This document shows positions 38,150 to 57,565 of a stretch of DNA of 64,000 nucleotides, piece by piece. The stretch's first letter is position 1; each line of letters begins with the position of its first letter. The stretch is from an uncultured Ignavibacteria bacterium (GTDB lineage: Bacteria; Zixibacteria; MSB-5A5; SM1-73), in the NCBI GenBank assembly GCA_964580215.1, contig CAZOJT010000011.1:5884-69883 (forward strand). The letters run 5' to 3'. A program made the translations under genes and the position numbers. Below the pieces are notes generated by a model. It saw only the letters and a program-made list of their open reading frames with translations. It searched no databases and was not told the DNA's origin.

Positions 38150-38945
38150 TGTTGAAAACGTGTTTTTGGAGTGCGAAAGCTTGTCCGAAGTATCCCCCGC
38201 CTTTGGCGGGGGGCTTTCGCAATTTCTTGAAATCCGGAGTCGTAGGGACAACCCTTCCTTCGACTTTGCTCCCTCCGGGTCTGAGCCTTCCTTCTCCCGC
38301 CAAAGGCGGGATCAGGACGAAGTGCAGGGTCGAAGACAGGATGGTGAACTTGTCCCTCGACTTCGCTCGGGACGGTGAGCTTGCCGAACTGTCGAACCGT
38401 GTGGCTGTCCTTTCTTCCTCACAGATGATTATCAGGATTAAGCAGATACAAGCATCTTTCTAAAGATCCTGCGGGCAGACAATCTGCTGCAAAAATCCGC
38501 TAAATCAGTTTCATCTGCTGTGAAGAAAAGTACCGGACAGGGACACTTCTCCCGCCAAAGGCGGGCTCAGTGCAGGCAAGCCCTGTCCCTACGGTCGCGT
38601 GTGTCATTCTGAGTCCCGCCGCAGGTGGGGCGAAGAATCTAAAAGCGAGATGCTTCCCCCGCCAAAGGCGGGGTCAGCATGACACGTCCGTGATAGCCGT
38701 TGGGACCCCGCCGTTGGCGGGATGGACCTCCTTTTTTTCTCACAGCTGATTATCAGGATTAAACAGATTAAAACATCTTTTCTCAAGATCCTGCGGGCAG
38801 ACAATCTGCTGCAAAAATCCGCTTAATCAGTTTCATCTGCTGTGAGGAAAACTTGTAGGGACAGCCCTTCAGGGTGAATCTCTTTCCTTCGACCCTGAGG
38901 TCTCAGGACCGAAGGGCAGGATGAACCCTCGTGGCTGTCCGCTAT
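38150..38945. repeat. Mosaic of REP/MITE-like elements including two ~117-bp copies (38411-38529, 38735-38851)
   Basis: Near-identical cagctgattatcaggatta...catctgctgtgaggaaaa copies with TTTTCCTCACAG-type terminal inverted repeats; several CCCGCC-N3-GGCGGG hairpins. Confidence 0.8.
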
Positions 38946-39029: not shown

Positions 39030-40070
39030 TCAGTTGCGGCGGCTCATTTGCTTACGTGCTTTAGCCTTGAGACCTGTTATTAGGCCAATATTTTGGCTGA
39101 TTCGGCGATATTTCACCGAGCTGAATCCTGTCTCCTTGAGTGAACATAATATGCTAGGCTTGGTTTGTCCCTTGGGCCTTATCGACAGATACCCGTGCAT
39201 AAACGCAGAAGGTGACGGCGCTTTTGATCTTGACGGGGGAAAACAACTTCTTACTACCATACCGCCGTCCGGCAGTCTCTCGTAAGCCATCTTCATGACT
39301 CGGGTGTCGATATAACCGATGTTCCAGAACATTATGATATCGAAGCCGCGGGGGATAGACTTGTTCATGTCGCCAGCCAGCGTCTTTATCCGGTGAGACA
39401 AACGTTCTTCACGAATAATTTCGCTGGCGGCATCGCATACGAACTTAAAATCAAAGATGCAGGCCGTTAGCTGTGGGTATGCCCGCGCCAGTGCGAAAGA
39501 CATAACGCCCGACCCGCCACCCACATCCAAAAGTGACTGGTAGTTTGACAAATCCAGATTCTTAGCCAGGATTTCAGCATCGGGCTTGTTTAGATCGTAG
39601 AGTGCACGGGTGAATTCCCTGGCCCAGCGAGGATCTTCCTGCGCAAGTTCGTAATCAGGTTTGCGCTCCTTGCCCAGTATCTGCTGCCAATCCCTGCCGC
39701 TTGATATTACATCCTCCATGACCGACAGGGCCTCATAGTCTTTAGCGCACTCATATGACCAAAGCCTTGTCCAGTCGATTGACCGCGCCTGTAGGAAGTG
39801 TCTGTTGGCAAGCGTGGAGTTACGATACAAATTGTCTTTTTTCTTCAAAAGCCCTAGGAAGACCAGAAAATCGAGGAAGGGCTCACAGTGTTTGCGATGA
39901 ATGCCCGCACGTCTACCTAGCTCAGCAGCGGACAATTCCTCTCCGTGGAGCTTTCGAAAGACTAAGAGTCTTTCCGCCGCTATGACACAGCGTGAGGCCT
40001 GGAAAATCGTCTCCAGGTCCAGTTTCTCCAATACCCTCTTGGGTAGCTTGTCCAACGTCAATTCTCTCAT
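39030..40070 (-). CDS. SAM-dependent methyltransferase (O-methyltransferase type 2, with dimerisation domain)
   Basis: LLDVGGGSG, LAGDM, N-terminal winged-helix segment. Confidence 0.85.
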   Translation of the reverse strand: MRELTLDKLPKRVLEKLDLETIFQASRCVIAAERLLVFRKLHGEELSAAELGRRAGIHRKHCEPFLDFLVFLGLLKKKDNLYRNSTLANRHFLQARSIDWTRLWSYECAKDYEALSVMEDVISSGRDWQQILGKERKPDYELAQEDPRWAREFTRALYDLNKPDAEILAKNLDLSNYQSLLDVGGGSGVMSFALARAYPQLTACIFDFKFVCDAASEIIREERLSHRIKTLAGDMNKSIPRGFDIIMFWNIGYIDTRVMKMAYERLPDGGMVVRSCFPPSRSKAPSPSAFMHGYLSIRPKGQTKPSILCSLKETGFSSVKYRRISQNIGLITGLKAKARKQMSRRN

Positions 40071-40328
40071 CAGATTGGACTCCTATGATACTTAATCCAG
40101 TTGTGTCGATCCACTCCTCAGTACGATTGCTCCACACTTTGAATCATGTCATCTGATAGGTGTGAAGCCGCTCTTTCGAAGCATCAGAACCATCTGTTCG
40201 CCTATTTTTTCTGATGCAACGGTATTAGTCTCAAGATCCTGCCAGAGGCGGGAGAAAAGCCGATGCTCGAAAATTCGGTTTTTCCCTCCCTTTATGGGAG
40301 GGAATAAAAGGGAGGGTAAAACAATCAA

Positions 40329-40643
40329 CGCCATTGGCGGGATGAATCTCCTTTTTTTCCTCACAGCTGATTATCAGGATTAAGCAGATACAAGCATCTT
40401 TCTAAACATCCTGCGGGCAGACAATCTGCTTCAAAAATCCGCTAACTCAGCTTCATCTGCTGTGAGGAAAAGCCGTAGGGACAGCCCTCGGGGCTGTCCG
40501 CTTTCGGGTTCGGACAGGGACCCCGCCATGGCGGGATTTCGCAAGCTCAACAAGCCCTGTCCCTACACTCCCATTTGTCATTCTGAGTCCCGCCGCAGGC
40601 GGGACTCAGAATCTAAAAGCAAGATACTTCGCTCAGCATGACA
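40329..40643. repeat. REP/MITE mosaic including third ~117-bp copy (40355-40471)
   Basis: Same element types as 38411-38870. Confidence 0.8.
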
Positions 40644-40708
40644 CTGCGGCCGGTGCGTATGGGCTAACCTTGTGTTCGCGCTGCCGTGAGGGGAGGTTCA
40701 TTCGGCTC

Positions 40709-42094
40709 CTACGCGCTGTCAGGAGCCGAACGCTTCTCAGGCTGAGAAAACTCTAATTGAGCAGAAGTGGGCAAGCCTTCCCTGTACTGGTCGTCTTGAG
40801 CATAAAGGTAACAGTCTAGGGCTTGAGCTTCCCATCGTTCGGTAGCACCTGGCTGTTCCTTCTTCTGCCTTCTGACGCTGGCGGCTATCTGATTTAACTC
40901 CGCCAGTAGTGCGAACCTTAGATCGGTCTCGTTCCCCTTGAATTCCCTCGCCTTTCTGCGCTCGATGACATCTGTCCGTAGCAGCGAACGTGGTCCGCCC
41001 GGAGGATACTTCCTCATTCTTGCTGGCATCCTCCTAATGTAGTCGCCGAGTCGCCCGACGATAGAACCGTAGAACCGCTTGCCCAGAAACGCCGACACTG
41101 CTAGTAGATATTCAATCTGCATTCCGGGCGGGCGCGTAGACACGGCTTCCACTAGCATCTCCTTGATCGCTGCGCCTGGACAGCCCCTCAGCCAGTAGAA
41201 GACGGGGACTTCTTTGAACAAACAGAATCTGGCTACGTGTAGCCGCTGCTTCGGGGTGAGTTGGAGTTTCTGTCTCGCTTCATACCAATCCCAAAGTTCA
41301 TGGGGCGGCGGTAGCGTAAGTGAGTCCCGGGATGACATCGCCATCCACGCAGCTATCGCCTGATCAAGCGTCTTGGGTGCCACGGTGAAACTCATTCCTT
41401 TAACGGGTATTGCGTCAGGCGCGTCATCTATGATGAAGCGCTTATGCGATTCATCCGCTGGATCTTCAGAAAGCACGAACACCTCGCTTTCCGCTGGAGC
41501 CTCTACAACGCGCGCTATCTTGCGGAAAAGAGATTCTCTGAACTCCTCGATTCGCCTATTCACTATGTCATCAAAATCTCTATCATCCGCCAAATGCACC
41601 CCCGCGCTTCTTCTTACATAGAAAGTCCCTCTTCGAAGAACAACCTTTTCTGTGCCACTTGGATACGTGAAGCTTCCATCCTTCCATATCACATGAGTGA
41701 TTCTACATGATCTCGGGATGAGAAGTGCAACGAGACGCTTGCCTCCTGACGAGAAAGCCTTGCTCCGGAGCAAAGTGATTTGAGGTTCGACGAAACGATT
41801 TACCTTTTGCATTATTTTGTTCGAGTCCGCGAGCGTACGCACGATCTCAGGATTGAGGCCAACTGGCTCAAATGAGGCGTCTCGTACGCCGAAGAGAATG
41901 TAACCTCCCAGCGTATTGGCGAAGGCCATTATGTCCTTAGTGATTTCAAGCCAATCCCGCTCGCTAACCGGATCGATAGTCTCTTTGTAGTCTATTAGCC
42001 AATCCTCTTCGCGGTAATTCGTGAGAAATTCAAGCGCTTCGTCCGAGAGAGGATCCTCGGAGTCAAGGAATTCTTGAACGCTTTTTGGTGTCAC
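40709..42094 (-). CDS. Schlafen/AlbA_2 domain protein with uncharacterised C-terminus
   Basis: EEDWLIDYKE, KDIMAFANTLGGYILFGVRD, FYVRRSAG. Confidence 0.85.
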   Translation of the reverse strand: MTPKSVQEFLDSEDPLSDEALEFLTNYREEDWLIDYKETIDPVSERDWLEITKDIMAFANTLGGYILFGVRDASFEPVGLNPEIVRTLADSNKIMQKVNRFVEPQITLLRSKAFSSGGKRLVALLIPRSCRITHVIWKDGSFTYPSGTEKVVLRRGTFYVRRSAGVHLADDRDFDDIVNRRIEEFRESLFRKIARVVEAPAESEVFVLSEDPADESHKRFIIDDAPDAIPVKGMSFTVAPKTLDQAIAAWMAMSSRDSLTLPPPHELWDWYEARQKLQLTPKQRLHVARFCLFKEVPVFYWLRGCPGAAIKEMLVEAVSTRPPGMQIEYLLAVSAFLGKRFYGSIVGRLGDYIRRMPARMRKYPPGGPRSLLRTDVIERRKAREFKGNETDLRFALLAELNQIAASVRRQKKEQPGATERWEAQALDCYLYAQDDQYREGLPTSAQLEFSQPEKRSAPDSA

Positions 42095-42326
42095 CTACTG
42101 CCTCCGCACGAGATTAGCCGGTGCCATAGGAAATGCACCCGTCCGTTACCTTCGCAAATGTCGCGCAAGACGGCTGCCATGAGCCGCTCTCGCAGGACCC
42201 TCCAGCAATCACGTCTATGTGTCCACTACAAGAAGTTACTGCCTTTTTCCTGAATAGTCAATCCTTTTCTACCTAGGTTCTCCCTGGGAAGAACTGTATT
42301 GGCGCAAAAAGAGGGTGGGCAATCGT

Positions 42327-44300
42327 CTACTCAGTTCTCGTGCGGCGGAAAAGGAAGTAGCCCAACAGGGCGAAGATGGCTAAAGAGAGTATATCACCCA
42401 ATGATCCTGAGAGGAGAAAGCCCACCCCTTTTGGCTTTCCCAGGAAGAATGCATACAAAGCTATGCCCACACCCAACAACCCCTCACCAGCTATAAGCCC
42501 GGAGCCGAAGAGAATTCCCTTTTCTCTTCTTTGGTTAAGCTCTACTTCTTTGCTCTTATATTTTTTCTCTATGAAACGCCTTATGCATCCTCCAACAAAG
42601 ATGGGTGTCATGGTGGAGACTGGCAGGTAAAGCCCCACTGCAAACGGAAGGGAGGGTAAGCGGAAAAGTTCAACTATGCCGCTAAGCGCGGCTCCGGCGA
42701 TAACAAAACCCCAGGGAATCTGAGCCTGCAAAACCCCTTCTATTACGGTCTTCATCAAAGTTGCCTGAGGGGCGGGCAGGTCGGTTGAGCCAAATTCATA
42801 AGCGCTGTTTAAGATCATCACTGCACCGCAGACGGCAAAGGCGGAAGTCATTGCGCCGATAAGCTCTCCGATCTGCTGTCTGTTGGGGGTAGCTCCCACC
42901 AGGAATCCGGTCTTGAGATCCTGGGAGGTATCACCGGCTATGGATGCGGCCACACAAACCACGGTGCCCACGGTCAAAGCCGCCACCATGCCCACTTCAT
43001 CGGTCCAGCCTAAAAGCACGAAGATCAAACTGGTGCCCAGAAGAGTCATAATGGTCATACCAGAGGTGGGATTGGAGGAGACCCCCACCAGACCGACTAT
43101 ACGGGAGGATACGGTAACGAAGAAAAAAGCAAATATGGCTATGCACAAAGCACCCATCAGTCTGATATAAATGGATTCCACATTGCCCAGTATATGAGGC
43201 ACCAAAGCGATTATCAAAACTATTACAGCCACACCTCCAAGAACATAGGTAATGGGCAGATCAGCCTGGGTTCTATCTCTTTTGGGTTGAACGGTCGGGG
43301 TATGCGGTGAGGTTTTCTTCATTCTGGATTTCATCTCATCCAGGCTCAATTTGAAGGATTTCACCATGGTGGGAATGGATCTTATGATGGTGATTATACC
43401 TCCGAAAGCAACTGCTCCAGCTCCTACATATCTTATGTATCTATTCCAGATCTCCGAGGGGCTCATATCGATTATGAGTTTGGTGGTTTCAGGGAACAAG
43501 GGGATGGTCATTCCTTCCCCATAGTAAGCGATCAGAGGAATCAATATCACCCAGGAGATCAAACCCCCTGCCACCATGATAAATGATATGCGGAATCCCA
43601 GAATGTAGCCCACGCCCAAAAGAGCAGGAGTGGTCTCAATGCCTATCTGTGCCTTTTTCAACCCGGGAATAGCGGAATGCACTTTATCTTTCCACAGGTG
43701 CAGAAAGCCGATGAAAAACTTGTAGAACGCGCCGATTCCCAATCCCAGAAAAACATTGCTGGCTTTGGCTCCTCCGGCTTCGCTGGCAACCAGAACCTTG
43801 GCACAAGCGGTTCCTTCAGGATAGGGGAGCTTGCCATGTTCCTGGACGATTAGGAATCTTCTCAGCGGGATCATAAAAAGAATGCCCAAAAGCCCTCCCA
43901 ACAGAGCCAGGCTTGCCATCTGGACCAACGTGGGGTTCAAACCCCATAAGAATAATGCCGGAATGGTGAAAATAACTCCTGAAGCCAGGGACGAACTGGC
44001 AGACCCTACGGTCTGAGAGATGTTGTTCTCCAGAATGGTGGTTTTGCCGAAAAGAGGTCTGGCAAAGCGAAAGAAAGCCACGGTCATTACCGCTACGGGA
44101 ATAGAGGTGGAGACAGTCAAGCCGGCTTTTAAACCTAAATAGGCGTTAGCCGCTCCAAACATTATCCCGAAGATGATCCCGGAGATCACCACCCTAGGGG
44201 TGAACTCCGGAAGAATTTTTTCTCTTGCCACGTAGGGTTGGAACTCTGGGCCTGAGATCGATTGTGAATTATTTGGTTTTTTTTGCATATGACTATTCAA
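42327..44300 (-). CDS. OPT-family oligopeptide transporter
   Basis: YLGLKAGLTVSTSIP, ENNISQT, YPEGTACA, SNPTSG, DLKTGFL, APQATLM. Confidence 0.95.
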   Translation of the reverse strand: MNSHMQKKPNNSQSISGPEFQPYVAREKILPEFTPRVVISGIIFGIMFGAANAYLGLKAGLTVSTSIPVAVMTVAFFRFARPLFGKTTILENNISQTVGSASSSLASGVIFTIPALFLWGLNPTLVQMASLALLGGLLGILFMIPLRRFLIVQEHGKLPYPEGTACAKVLVASEAGGAKASNVFLGLGIGAFYKFFIGFLHLWKDKVHSAIPGLKKAQIGIETTPALLGVGYILGFRISFIMVAGGLISWVILIPLIAYYGEGMTIPLFPETTKLIIDMSPSEIWNRYIRYVGAGAVAFGGIITIIRSIPTMVKSFKLSLDEMKSRMKKTSPHTPTVQPKRDRTQADLPITYVLGGVAVIVLIIALVPHILGNVESIYIRLMGALCIAIFAFFFVTVSSRIVGLVGVSSNPTSGMTIMTLLGTSLIFVLLGWTDEVGMVAALTVGTVVCVAASIAGDTSQDLKTGFLVGATPNRQQIGELIGAMTSAFAVCGAVMILNSAYEFGSTDLPAPQATLMKTVIEGVLQAQIPWGFVIAGAALSGIVELFRLPSLPFAVGLYLPVSTMTPIFVGGCIRRFIEKKYKSKEVELNQRREKGILFGSGLIAGEGLLGVGIALYAFFLGKPKGVGFLLSGSLGDILSLAIFALLGYFLFRRTRTE

Positions 44301-55163: not shown

Positions 55164-56609
55164 ATGGCAACAACTCAAATCGAAGCAATGAATCTCGATG
55201 GGGATGTACCACAGGCGGCAATGAAAGGACTCGACCGCATTGAAAAGCTGAACCGCGATGCCGAAGCGCGGTGGGCAGAAAAACTGCAGGTTGATGCCTC
55301 GCTCACTCGCGCACTTGTGAGCTTTCAAGCCAACAAGAGCAGAGCCGTTTATCGTTGGTTCAAATTTAAAGAGGCTTTTTCCGCAGGCCTCGTCGAGCAT
55401 CTGCTGCGCAGGTATCGAATCGCCAGCGGTATTGTGCTTGATCCATTTGCAGGAAGCGGGACGGCTTTGTTTGCAGCAGGCGGTTTAGGGATGAGGACCG
55501 AAGGGATCGAACTGCTACCGATAGGTCAAACCATCATCACGACGAAGCAGTTGATTGATTGGCAGTTGACCGACGCGGATGTTGGACGATTGGCCTCTTG
55601 GCGGGATAAGCGCCCGTGGCGTCAGAGCAAGGCTTCTATGGCGATCAATGAATTGCGGATCACACGTGGCGCATATCCGGCAGAGACGCTTGAGGCGATG
55701 GGGCGATTTCTCGCTGCGTCAGAACAAGAGGGAGAACGCGTGAAGGCCATCCTGCTCTTTGCCCTGCTGTGCATCCTTGAAACTATCAGTTACACGCGGA
55801 AGGATGGGCAGTATCTCCGCTGGGACTATCGCTCTGGCCGATGCCAAGGGAAAAAGAGGTTCGACAAGGGCGAGATTTTAGGCTTTGACAAAGCGATCAC
55901 GGACAAGCTGGATGACATTGTTACGGACTTGTGTTCCTCTGATTTTCCCGAGGATTTGTTCGCGACGACTCGCTCGAAGGCTGATGTCAAGCTGCACGGT
56001 GGTTCATGCCTTGCCATTCTGCCAAAACTCAAAGCAGAGGCCTACAACTGCCTGATCACCTCTCCACCCTACTGCAATCGCTACGACTATACGCGCACCT
56101 ATGCTCTGGAACTCGCTCTTCTTGGTGTTGACCAGGAAGGATTGGTCAGACTCAGACAGGAAATGTTGAGTTGCACGGTGGAAAACCGTGCCAAAGACCT
56201 TCTGGCGTTGAATCCAGAATGGAAACCGGCAATGATGGCCGCTGATAGACAACCGCTCCTTAAAAGCATCCTTGCCTACTTGGATTCGCAGAAGGAACTC
56301 GATCTACTCAACAATGACGGAATCCCTCGCATGGTGCGCGGATACTTCTACGAGATGGCTTGCGTTATTTTTGAGTCCGCGCGGGTGCTGAAGCGAGACG
56401 CTCTTCTCATCATGGTCAACGACAATGTGCGATACGCCGGGGCAGCTATCTCCGTAGATATTATTCTCTCCCAAATTGCTGAGCAATTGGGGTTCGAGCC
56501 GAAGCAGATTCTTGTGCTGCCCAACGGAAAAGGAAACAGCAGCCAGCAAATGGGTGCTCATGGCCGCGAAGCGCTGCGTAAATGTGTGTATATCTGGCGA
56601 AAGAAATAG
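55164..56609 (+). CDS. Site-specific DNA methyltransferase (N4-cytosine type, M.AvaI/M.BsoBI-like)
   Basis: [31 protein letters not shown]. Confidence 0.9.
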
Positions 56610-57565
56610 CAAATGCCGAAGCCATATTCCAGCACCTCAGATCCAGCAAGAGCCTTGAGACAACCTACGAGGCGGTTCGAGCGGGATTCGTTGCGCTTGC
56701 GCTGGAAAAGAATCGCCGTGCTACGCCCTTTGTCGCTCAAGCAAGAGCATTAAAAGCCGCGGCCAGCAGAGCCAAGTCACCCGCTGGCTTGCTAAAGATT
56801 CCTGAAATTCAACCGGCATTGCTGACGGCGGCTGGAGTTTCAGACAAAGCAGTAAATCACCTGCAAGGCACTGACAAGCGCGAAGCCGTGAACGGCCTTA
56901 TCAAGAACTTTCTCGAGCCAGCAGGCGCGAACTTCATCGAGGAGCTTGTCTTTCGATTTCTGCTAACACGTGGCGATACGCTCGGTGGCTCGATGCGAAA
57001 CATCGGTGGCTTCATGGCTCAGAAGAAACTCACGCGAGCCATTGTCGCCTACTTGAAACTGGTGGGATACCAGTGCCAGTGGCTACACAGCGAGACCAAC
57101 ACTTGGGCCGAACTACCGCAGGAGGTCGCCGATGTCGAACTGTCGTTGCGTGGCCTCTGCTGGGATACGAGCAAAGGGCCGAGAACGCTCCTTTATAACC
57201 TGACCGTCCCGTTGTTCCGAAACAACGTGGACTTGTCGCTGTTCAACTGTGCTGCAAAAGATCTGACTCGCGAAATAATCAAGACACCATCCGCTTACAT
57301 CGCACTTGGCGAACTCAAGGGCGGCATTGACCCGGCTGGAGCGGACGAACATTGGAAGACGGCTCGCACTGCGCTTGATCGGATTCATGAAGCTTTTGCA
57401 AAGCAGAAACTCAAACCACATACTTTCTTTATCGGAGCAGCCATTGAAGCCAAGATGGCCACGGAGATTTGGGAAATGCTCAAGCGAGGCAATCTGGAAA
57501 ATGCCGCAAACCTCACCGACGAGGATCAGATTGCCTCCGTTACGAGTTGGCTTTGCTCATTGTGA
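56582..57565 (+). CDS. Type II restriction endonuclease, AvaI/BsoBI family
   Basis: [41 protein letters not shown]. Confidence 0.93.

What the first reader, a model, noticed from the sequence alone, without database searches (positions are those of the whole stretch)
40709..42094. Stand-alone Schlafen/AlbA_2 protein with an unassigned ~270-aa C-terminal region
Seen: AlbA_2 motifs including E..W.IDYKE acidic residues, GC-richer than neighbours, next to a repeat mosaic, and no P-loop in the C-terminus. Established: Schlafen domains are tRNA/rRNA endoribonucleases, and prokaryotic members fused to variable domains have been linked to anti-phage defence. Inference: the C-terminal region is a novel phage sensor.
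Basis: partly seen in the sequence, partly recalled or inferred. Interest (0 to 1): 0.55.

Follow-up and report, generated by a model that had tools for sequence, protein, structure and literature searches.

The report
Stand-alone bacterial Schlafen defence nuclease candidate
This gene encodes a bacterial relative of the human antiviral Schlafen tRNA-cutting enzymes, joined to a conserved helical domain of unknown fold, and it sits at a chromosomal spot where sister species carry known anti-phage systems, so it is very probably one more single-gene phage defence of a kind first described in 2026.

Summary
Window 40709-42094 (-) is an intact 461-aa gene. Residues 30-164 are a Schlafen/AlbA_2 domain (Pfam E 1.3e-14) carrying the catalytic E30-x4-D35-x-K37 motif. 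The remaining ~270 residues match no Pfam or NCBIfam family and contain no P-loop.

That region is a long helix, a conserved linker and an all-helical domain. The helical domain models confidently (pLDDT 92.8) but has no convincing relative among solved or viral structures.

More than 220 full-length homologues occur in many phyla. None of the 69 loci examined has a conserved neighbour gene, so the gene stands alone. None of 40 related genomes, including 13 congeners, has an orthologue.

In congeners, the slot directly after the conserved OPT transporter gene holds CBASS, Thoeris, or DRT5 plus AbiJ. The gene therefore occupies a defence hotspot.

The C-terminal module also occurs once each behind an Mrr-type nuclease and a HEPN (DUF3644) RNase. 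This fits a regulatory or sensor module, but nothing here shows sensing.

Prokaryotic Schlafens with varied, often unannotated sensor domains were published in 2026. This is a new variant of a known kind, of moderate interest.

The parts
40709..42094 (-). Whole gene: 461-aa stand-alone prokaryotic Schlafen (pSlfn) protein, GTG start, stop at 40709-40711
   Evidence: It aligns full-length to more than 220 homologues of 43-81% identity.
42101..42105 (-). Shine-Dalgarno-like GGAGG, 6 nt before the GTG start
   Evidence: Read directly from the sequence.
42011..42094 (-). Residues 1-28: N-terminal helical extension with the near-invariant D14-P15-L16 motif
   Evidence: Alignment A1; model.
41585..42010 (-). 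Residues 29-170: Schlafen/AlbA_2 nuclease core
   Evidence: Pfam PF04326, E 1.3e-14. Model pLDDT is above 90. VIA Z is 11.7 (3lmm), 10.9 (SAMD9 tRNase) and 8-9 (SLFN5/11/12/13/14). Foldseek probability is 1.00.
41984..42007 (-). Residues 30-37, E-D-W-L-I-D-Y-K: the predicted catalytic E-x4-D-x-K motif
   Evidence: E30 and K37 are invariant and D35 is conserved in at least 90% of 51 homologues. The motif aligns to E205/E210/K212 of rat SLFN13 and to E17/D22/K24 of CbCash. E17Q/D22N abolishes CbCash activity.
41501..41584 (-). Residues 171-198: long conserved helix after the nuclease core
   Evidence: Model; mean pairwise identity 0.55.
41420..41500 (-). Residues 199-225: conserved linker that models as disordered (VVEAP..SEVF...FII.D)
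   Evidence: pLDDT below 50, yet mean pairwise identity is 0.44.
40799..41419 (-). Residues 226-432: the C-terminal module. It comprises the PDAIPVKGMSFTV.P motif plus an all-helical, solenoid-like domain. The module shared with other effectors starts at about residue 211-218.
   Evidence: Domain-only model: pLDDT 92.8, pTM 0.89. No Pfam hit in 58 members. No structural relative: Foldseek PDB best E 0.39, VIA best Z 4.6, BFVD best E 0.37. The same module sits behind Mrr_cat in P0200 and behind DUF3644/HEPN in P0215.
40712..40798 (-). Residues 433-461: unconserved, disordered tail
40276..40700 (.). Mosaic of short interspersed repeats directly downstream of the gene
   Evidence: 49 matches in the organism's own genome; copies in congeners.
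42327..44300 (-). OPT oligopeptide transporter gene: the conserved flank of the variable slot. Similarity to congeners ends at its stop codon.
   Evidence: Pfam OPT, E 5e-107. Orthologues of 84-91% identity occur in five congeners, and a sixth match at 81% is cut at a contig end. blastn similarity stops at 42327-42337.

Best explanation
This is a single-gene anti-phage system of the prokaryotic Schlafen (pSlfn) class.

The N-terminal AlbA_2/Schlafen domain is a metal-dependent endoribonuclease with catalytic E30, D35 and K37. By analogy with RorSlfn5, CbCash and human SLFN11, it cuts tRNA and shuts down translation in the infected cell.

A prokaryotic Schlafen has only one nuclease lobe, so the active enzyme is probably a homodimer or a higher oligomer. 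The conserved helix, the linker and the helical C-terminal module (residues ~211-432) are proposed to hold the nuclease inactive until an infection cue is bound, and then to permit the active assembly.

Shown here: the domain, motif, fold and conservation; the lack of a partner gene; the accessory, horizontally spread distribution; the position in a defence hotspot; and the reuse of the C-module with two other nuclease effectors.

Inferred: RNase activity, tRNA as the target, oligomerisation, and the sensor role and its ligand.
For: The domain and motif are present. The Schlafen fold is matched at Z 8-11.7, with a clear drop to 5.5 below the Schlafen/AlbA_2 rows.

The motif Ex4(E/D)xK is the one published for 5,930 pSlfns, two of which protect E. 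coli from phages (PMC13056530). CbCash E17/D22 are required for tRNA cleavage (PMC13462974).

The gene has no orthologue in 40 relatives, including 13 congeners. Homologues of 41-52% identity occur in Burkholderiales, Nitrospirales, Blastocatellia, Verrucomicrobiota, Anaerolineales, Ignavibacteria, Latescibacterota, Flavobacteriaceae and Thermodesulfobacteriota.

Directly after the orthologous OPT gene, G003 has a CBASS cyclase plus a 2TM/Cap15 effector. G001 has ThsA, ThsB and TIR-TM. G005 has Drt5 (E 5e-199) plus AbiJ. G005 and G013 share both flanks, with the far-flank protein 97% identical, yet carry different cargo.

The C-module is fused to Mrr_cat in P0200 (39% identity) and to HEPN/DUF3644 in P0215 (34% identity), which matches PADLOC candidate PDC-S19. 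DUF3644 is a HEPN RNase used by the validated systems HEC-08 and Ishtar.

The nuclease core is more conserved (0.53) than the C-domain (0.35), as reported for pSlfn5.

Some homologues lie next to TIR, SLATT, MADS, HEC-05, PDC-S09, toxin-antitoxin and IS genes.
Against: There is no functional data.

In the window itself the neighbours within 10 kb are ordinary genes: OPT, a HEAT-repeat protein, an O-methyltransferase, a rhomboid protease and a response regulator.

Many homologues also lie among housekeeping genes, and I could not compute a per-locus defence score.

The two alternative fusions are each seen on a single contig. A scan of 46 further metagenome loci found no other fusion.

The residue matching the third catalytic acid of SLFN13 (D248, equivalent to D72 here) varies as D/N/S/G across the family.

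The C-domain is conserved across phyla with invariant W, R and P residues. That is unlike a fast-evolving sensor of a phage protein.

The family was not found in IMG/VR.
Confidence: 0.65

Rival explanations
1. It is a defence or toxin nuclease, but the C-terminal module is not a sensor. Instead it is a structural part that drives oligomerisation or holds the RNA substrate, much as the PPR domain of PRORP holds tRNA. Activation would then come from something else, such as expression level, a host factor or a modification.
For: A single-lobe Schlafen needs a partner lobe. In CbCash the fused domain builds the dimer and the filament. The C-domain is conserved across phyla with invariant aromatic and arginine residues. 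Its weak structural neighbours are mostly helical-repeat RNA-binding proteins: LRPPRC at Z 5.5, plus PPR and PUF proteins. Two of its three effector partners are RNases.
Against: The structural scores are at noise level for helical proteins (Z at most 5.5). The module also pairs with an Mrr-type PD-(D/E)xK nuclease, nominally a DNase. In every characterised pSlfn the fused domain controls activation.
Confidence: 0.2
2. It is a selfish toxin or inter-element competition gene that arrived with mobile DNA, not a host defence. It would be kept by addiction or simply be in transit.
For: The distribution is patchy. IS elements and toxin-antitoxin genes lie near several homologues. One homologue (L019) is split by an inserted 471-aa ORF. 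Several copies are broken. The gene is flanked by interspersed repeats.
Against: No antitoxin-like partner is conserved in 69 loci. The gene is intact here and lies in a slot that holds bona fide defence systems in congeners. It was not found on viral contigs. No integrase or transposase lies next to it in the window.
Confidence: 0.08
3. It is a housekeeping or regulatory nucleic-acid-binding protein. AlbA_2 proteins were long annotated as DNA-binding or 'ATP-binding' regulators with no role in conflict.
For: Public names for homologues are 'ATP-binding protein' and 'Putative DNA-binding domain'. 30.4% of published pSlfns are not near defence genes. The neighbours in the window are ordinary.
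Against: The gene is absent from all 13 congeners searched. The catalytic motif is strictly conserved. It occupies a defence hotspot. Its module is shared with HEPN and Mrr nucleases.
Confidence: 0.07

Closest known systems
RorSlfn5 (pSlfn5), Raoultella ornithinolytica; Nat Microbiol 2026, PMC13056530
   Same: Both are single-gene proteins with an AlbA_2/Schlafen nuclease carrying Ex4(E/D)xK joined to a C-terminal accessory domain. In both the nuclease is more conserved than the accessory domain. Both are accessory genes in variable regions.
   Different: RorSlfn5 has an immunoglobulin-like sensor that recognises the T5 tail assembly chaperone. The domain here is all-helical, has no Pfam family and has no structural relative. 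Its trigger is unknown and no activity has been shown.
CbCash (CRISPR-associated Schlafen), PDB 9ylu; Nat Commun 2026, PMC13462974
   Same: It is the best prokaryotic sequence match among solved structures (E 1.1e-6 over residues 29-141). It has the same E-x4-D-x-K variant (E17/D22/K24) and the same conserved Asp in the KD..A.AN segment.
   Different: Cash is fused to Csx15, is switched on by cA4 from a type III CRISPR system, and forms filaments. Here there is no Csx15, no cyclase and no CRISPR partner, and no conserved neighbour at all.
[quoted passage not shown]
   Same: It is a stand-alone Schlafen with an unannotated C-terminal region, reported to give broad abortive-infection defence.
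   Different: No Enterococcus relative appeared in any search, so it is probably a different C-terminal domain.
HEC-08 and Ishtar (HEPN/DUF3644 single-gene defences) and PADLOC candidate PDC-S19
   Same: One relative of the C-module (P0215) carries a DUF3644/HEPN domain that matches PDC-S19 at E 1.4e-69. This shows the module serves an RNase effector already used in validated defences.
   Different: HEC-08 has zinc-finger-like C-terminal domains and Ishtar has a beta-rich one. The window protein itself has no HEPN domain and does not match PDC-S19.
Human SLFN11/SLFN13 and the SAMD9 tRNase domain
   Same: They share the fold (Z 8-10.9) and the aligned catalytic E/E(D)/K residues.
   Different: Mammalian proteins have two nuclease lobes in one chain and a helicase or other large domains. 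Here there is one lobe and no P-loop. The equivalent of D248 is not conserved in the family.

Membership tests
Prokaryotic Schlafen nucleases (pSlfn; Pfam PF04326 SLFN_AlbA_2) | PF04326 domain above Pfam's gathering score | tested here: met
   55.2 bits against a cut-off of 25.3, residues 30-164. 49 of 58 family members also match.
Prokaryotic Schlafen nucleases (pSlfn; Pfam PF04326 SLFN_AlbA_2) | Catalytic Ex4(E/D)xK motif | tested here: met
   E30-x4-D35-x-K37. E30 and K37 are invariant and D35 is conserved in at least 90% of 51 homologues. The motif aligns to SLFN13 and to CbCash E17/D22. The motif definition comes from PMC13056530.
Prokaryotic Schlafen nucleases (pSlfn; Pfam PF04326 SLFN_AlbA_2) | Schlafen/AlbA_2 three-dimensional fold | tested here: met
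   On a predicted model (pLDDT above 90 in this domain), VIA Z is 11.7 for 3lmm, 10.9 for the SAMD9 tRNase and 8-9 for SLFN5/11/12/13/14. The next unrelated row scores 5.5.
Prokaryotic Schlafen nucleases (pSlfn; Pfam PF04326 SLFN_AlbA_2) | Third active-site acid (D248 of rat SLFN13, D252 of SLFN11) | tested here: inconclusive
   The aligned residue is D72 in the window protein, but it is D/N/S/G across homologues. D54 is invariant and also present in CbCash. Model coordinates could not be inspected.
Prokaryotic Schlafen nucleases (pSlfn; Pfam PF04326 SLFN_AlbA_2) | Association with defence genes or defence islands | tested here: met
   The same slot after the OPT gene holds CBASS, Thoeris or DRT5+AbiJ in three of four congeners examined. 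The neighbourhoods of distant homologues are mixed.
Prokaryotic Schlafen nucleases (pSlfn; Pfam PF04326 SLFN_AlbA_2) | Phage-triggered tRNA cleavage and protection from phage | not testable with these tools
   This needs expression, phage challenge and RNA sequencing.
pSlfn classes with annotated partner domains (HisKinase, HTH, DUF5929, Ig-like, DUF262, TBP-like) | One of these domains fused to the Schlafen domain | tested here: not met
   No Pfam family other than PF04326 was found at E up to 1, either in the window protein or in the C-terminal part of the 58 scanned members of alignment A2. The model is all-helical, not Ig-like. An Atlas lead to DUF5929 (score 0.77) was not borne out.
Cash (CRISPR-associated Schlafen-Csx15) | Csx15 Rossmann-like cA4 sensor and a type III CRISPR partner | tested here: not met
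   The match to 9ylu covers only its Schlafen part, residues 16-135. The C-domain is all-helical. No neighbour is conserved.
PADLOC candidate PDC-S50 | Match along the PDC-S50 profile (387 positions) | tested here: not met
   Only 22.8 bits, E 1.1e-5, with residues 19-83 matching profile positions 7-70.
Mammalian group III Schlafens (SLFN5/11/13/14) | Two-lobe nuclease plus a C-terminal P-loop helicase | tested here: not met
   There is a single AlbA_2 lobe and no Walker A motif.

The most novel reading that the evidence does not exclude
The helical C-terminal module (residues ~211-432) may be a new, effector-independent sensor or switch fold that bacteria plug onto at least three nuclease classes: Schlafen, HEPN/DUF3644 and Mrr. 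It is conserved across many phyla with invariant Trp, Arg, Pro and Asp residues. That suggests it detects a conserved cue, such as a nucleic-acid feature, a nucleotide or a host component altered by infection, rather than one fast-evolving phage protein.
Probability: 0.3. Interest if true: 0.6.

Novelty: new variant of a known kind. Interest (0 to 1): 0.42.

Why it matters
Schlafen nucleases link human antiviral immunity to bacterial phage defence. What remains open is how the many fused domains switch the nuclease on.

This family offers a clean case. The protein is small and stands alone. Its catalytic motif is intact. Its partner domain models confidently as a fold with no known relative and is reused with two other nucleases. 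Hundreds of natural variants are available for comparison.

The work also marks a defence hotspot downstream of an OPT transporter gene in this genus. One occupant there, in G013, is still unidentified.

Tried and rejected
- **Context look-up:** Context therefore came from the search for related loci, the genome search and the fetch from genomes.
- **Conserved partner gene:** none in 23 loci, then none in 69.
- **Fold of the C-domain:** Foldseek against PDB gave a best E of 0.39. VIA-align against 48,161 chains gave a best Z of 4.6, all generic helical repeats. BFVD gave a best E of 0.37. The second look on the full model gave LRPPRC at Z 5.5. None is convincing. This shows neither that the fold is new nor that it is unrelated to them.
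- **Sequence profile against PDB:** only designed repeat proteins matched the C-part, at E 0.2-0.4.
- **ESM Atlas:** scores were at most 0.78, in the chance range. The DUF5929 lead was not confirmed by Pfam on 58 members.
- **Viral contigs:** no relative in IMG/VR.
- **More alternative fusions:** a word-based search with the C-part returned only AlbA_2 forms and fragments. The first C-module alignment was too diverse for a pattern scan. The narrower one found 46 metagenome loci: 43 with a clear AlbA_2 N-domain, one short ORF with only a weak match, and two C-terminal fragments. None showed a new fusion.
- **RNA genes and signals:** no Rfam family or tRNA nearby. The promoter and terminator scan was uninformative.
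- **GC as evidence of transfer:** weak, because GC3 is not distinctive.

Full report
**The gene**

Window 40709-42094 on the minus strand is an uninterrupted 461-codon frame. It starts at GTG, with GGAGG six bases upstream.

Pfam places SLFN_AlbA_2 (PF04326) on residues 30-164 at 55.2 bits, against a cut-off of 25.3. NCBIfam gives nothing. PADLOC gives only a weak partial match of residues 19-83 to candidate PDC-S50.

There is no Walker A motif.

The gene is 0.520 GC against 0.450 for the window. Its immediate neighbours are 0.49-0.50 and third-position GC is not distinctive, so composition is weak evidence.

The 425 bases downstream are a patchwork of short repeats. They have 49 matches across the organism's own genome and copies in congeners.

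**The family**

A word-indexed search found 223 proteins. A full HMMER pass over 1.84 billion representatives found 1,322 hits at E up to 0.001, 99 of them at E up to 1e-30.

The close ones are 430-470 residues long and align from end to end at 43-81% identity. The '270-aa unassigned region' is therefore a conserved part of a defined family, not a random tail.

In named genomes, 23 loci carry close relatives (some broken or cut at contig ends), at 32-61% identity over the best aligned segment. They come from Burkholderiales, Thiodiazotropha, Nitrospirales, Blastocatellia, a verrucomicrobial MAG, Anaerolineales, Woeseiaceae, Ignavibacteria, Latescibacterota, Eudoraea, Halieaceae, Thermodesulfobacteriota and Smithella.

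All-against-all comparison of neighbouring ORFs found no gene that travels with it. This held in 23 loci and again in 69 loci. The protein works alone or with unlinked partners.

**The nuclease domain**

The AlphaFold2 model has a mean pLDDT of 84.8, and above 90 over most of residues 11-180.

- Foldseek matches residues ~1-190 to DIP2311 (3lmm), the SAMD9 tRNase domain, SLFN13, SLFN11, SLFN5, SLFN14 and SLFN12.
- VIA-align gives Z 11.7, 10.9 and 8-9 for these, then drops to 5.5.
- A family profile matches the PDB sequences of SLFN13, SLFN5 and the prokaryotic CbCash.

In those alignments E30, D35 and K37 fall on E205, E210 and K212 of rat SLFN13, and on E17, D22 and K24 of CbCash. The published pSlfn signature is Ex4(E/D)xK (PMC13056530). 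CbCash E17Q/D22N loses tRNA cleavage (PMC13462974).

E30 and K37 are invariant, and D35 is conserved in at least 90% of the 51 aligned homologues.

One point is unsettled. The residue aligned with the third acid of SLFN13 (D248) is D72 here, but D, N, S or G in relatives. D54 is invariant and shared with CbCash.

**The C-terminal part**

The full model shows four pieces after the nuclease core:

- a long helix, residues 171-198;
- a stretch that models as disordered although it is conserved, residues 198-237;
- an all-helical domain, residues 243-431;
- a disordered, unconserved tail.

Folded alone with 58 sequences, residues 226-445 give pLDDT 92.8 and pTM 0.89.

Despite that confidence, nothing solved or viral resembles the domain. 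Foldseek against PDB gives a best E of 0.39. VIA-align against 48,161 chains gives a best Z of 4.6. BFVD gives a best E of 0.37. The hits are generic helical repeats (HEAT, TPR, PPR) at scores the tool's own notes call common for helical models.

No Pfam family matches the C-part in any of the 58 sequences of alignment A2, 49 of which carry PF04326. An Atlas lead to DUF5929, a known pSlfn partner, scored 0.77, in the chance range, and Pfam did not confirm it.

Mean pairwise identity across the family:

| Region | Mean pairwise identity |
|---|---|
| Nuclease core (29-170) | 0.53 |
| Helix (171-198) | 0.55 |
| PDAIPVKGMSFTV.P motif (226-241) | 0.65 |
| Helical domain (242-432) | 0.35 |

This is the same ordering reported for pSlfn5, where the sensor varies more than the nuclease.

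**Modularity**

Two hits of the exhaustive search carry the C-module behind a different head.

- P0200 (570 aa) has Mrr_cat at residues 29-135. Its residues 353-567 match residues 211-434 here at 39% identity.
- P0215 (460 aa) has DUF3644 at residues 11-183. It matches PADLOC candidate PDC-S19 at E 1.4e-69. Its residues 239-457 match residues 218-438 here at 34% identity.

DUF3644 is a HEPN RNase domain (PMC3710099). It is the effector of the validated systems HEC-08 and Ishtar. The module is therefore used with three nuclease types, the usual pattern of a regulatory or sensor part with exchangeable effectors.

There is a caveat. Each fusion is known from one contig, and a scan that returned 46 further metagenome loci found no other such fusion. 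Their low identity to the AlbA_2 forms argues against assembly chimeras but does not exclude them.

**Genomic position**

None of 40 related genomes has an orthologue, including 13 of the same genus. They have only distant AlbA_2 paralogues of 26-30% identity.

The OPT transporter gene next door is conserved at 84-91% identity in five congeners, with a sixth match at 81% cut at a contig end. Nucleotide similarity ends at its stop codon. What follows differs between genomes:

| Genome | Cargo directly after OPT | Evidence |
|---|---|---|
| G000 (this window) | the pSlfn gene | |
| G003 | CBASS cyclase (PADLOC E 9.9e-127) and a 2TM/Cap15 effector | |
| G001 | ThsA (E 9.2e-90), ThsB (E 1.6e-65) and a TIR-TM protein | |
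| G005 | Drt5 reverse transcriptase (E 5.1e-199) and AbiJ | |
| G013 | an unknown 416-aa protein and a trypsin-like peptidase | |

G005 and G013 share the far flank, a dockerin protein that is 97% identical, yet carry different cargo. This is a defence hotspot, and the pSlfn gene is its occupant in this genome.

In this genome the far flank is different. The genome has no orthologue of that dockerin protein.

Within 10 kb in the window the other genes are ordinary. A type II restriction-modification pair lies 13 kb away, at 55164-57565.

Around distant homologues the three genes on each side are a mixture:

- housekeeping genes;
- IS elements (rve, IS66);
- toxin-antitoxin genes (PIN, DUF2442);
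- defence-type genes (TIR_2 twice, SLATT_5, MADS genes, HEC-05, PDC-S09).

I could not turn this into a per-locus score.

**Reading**

The most likely account is a single-gene pSlfn defence. The nuclease is kept off until the helix, linker and C-module respond to infection. It then cuts tRNA and stops translation.

Dimer or oligomer formation is inferred. The protein has one Schlafen lobe, whereas SLFN11 works as a dimer around one tRNA and CbCash as dimers in filaments.

What the module senses is unknown. Its conservation across phyla, with invariant Trp, Arg, Pro and Asp residues, fits a conserved cue better than a single phage protein. It fits an oligomerisation or substrate-holding role equally well. 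That is the main rival.

**Novelty**

Prokaryotic Schlafens as phage defences were published in 2025-2026. That work described 55 domain architectures and found 17.2% of proteins with unannotated fusions, grouped in 558 clusters (PMC13056530). A stand-alone Enterococcus Schlafen with an unannotated C-terminus was shown to defend (PMC13552941).

The family here is known almost only from metagenome-assembled genomes, so it was probably outside the RefSeq complete-genome set used in that survey. That is my inference, not something I checked.

This is a new variant of a known kind. It has a well-defined partner domain that deserves a bench test, but the concept is not new.

Noticed in passing
L100:3335-4900 (G003), L102:310-2636 (G001), L103:2423-5103 (G005), all directly after the orthologue of window 42327-44300: This is a defence hotspot downstream of the OPT transporter gene in this genus. 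It holds CBASS (cyclase + Cap15/2TM) in G003, Thoeris (ThsA, ThsB) plus TIR-TM in G001, and DRT5 plus AbiJ in G005. Similarity between genomes ends at the OPT stop codon.
   Followed up: yes
L101:6723-8939 (G013): In G013 the same hotspot slot holds a 416-aa protein with no Pfam or PADLOC match, plus a trypsin-like peptidase with a weak PDC-S45 match. Its flanks are shared with G005. This may be an undescribed defence pair.
   Followed up: partly
protein P0207 (337 aa, one 1,052-base ENA contig): An AlbA_2 domain of this subfamily (45% identity over residues 6-153) runs straight into a Cas1 domain (Pfam E 1.1e-24). It is either a real Schlafen-Cas1 fusion or an assembly artefact. It is known from a single short contig.
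   Followed up: partly
window 55164-56609 (+) and 56582-57565 (+): A type II restriction-modification pair (PADLOC MTase_II E 1.4e-154, REase_II E 9.2e-120) lies 13 kb from the Schlafen gene.
   Followed up: partly
G000:C43:4922-5458 (locus L082), outside the window: The same genome has a second, distant AlbA_2 protein. It is a 441-aa open frame with 28% identity to residues 16-193 (Pfam PF04326 E 7.7e-18) and a different C-terminal part.
   Followed up: partly
window 38402-38884 and 40276-40700: These are short interspersed repeat units. A search with window 40276-40700 gave 49 matches in the organism's own genome, plus copies in congeners, where they also lie beside the hotspot cargo. They bracket the O-methyltransferase gene at 39030-40070, which has no counterpart at this place in the congeners examined.
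   Followed up: partly
L019:9998-12939; also L005, L008, L011, L018, L021: One homologue (Blastocatellia MAG) is split by a 471-aa ORF that recurs in L021, which looks like an insertion sequence. Several other homologues are broken by stops or frameshifts. Most of these are long-read MAGs, so sequencing errors are possible.
   Followed up: partly
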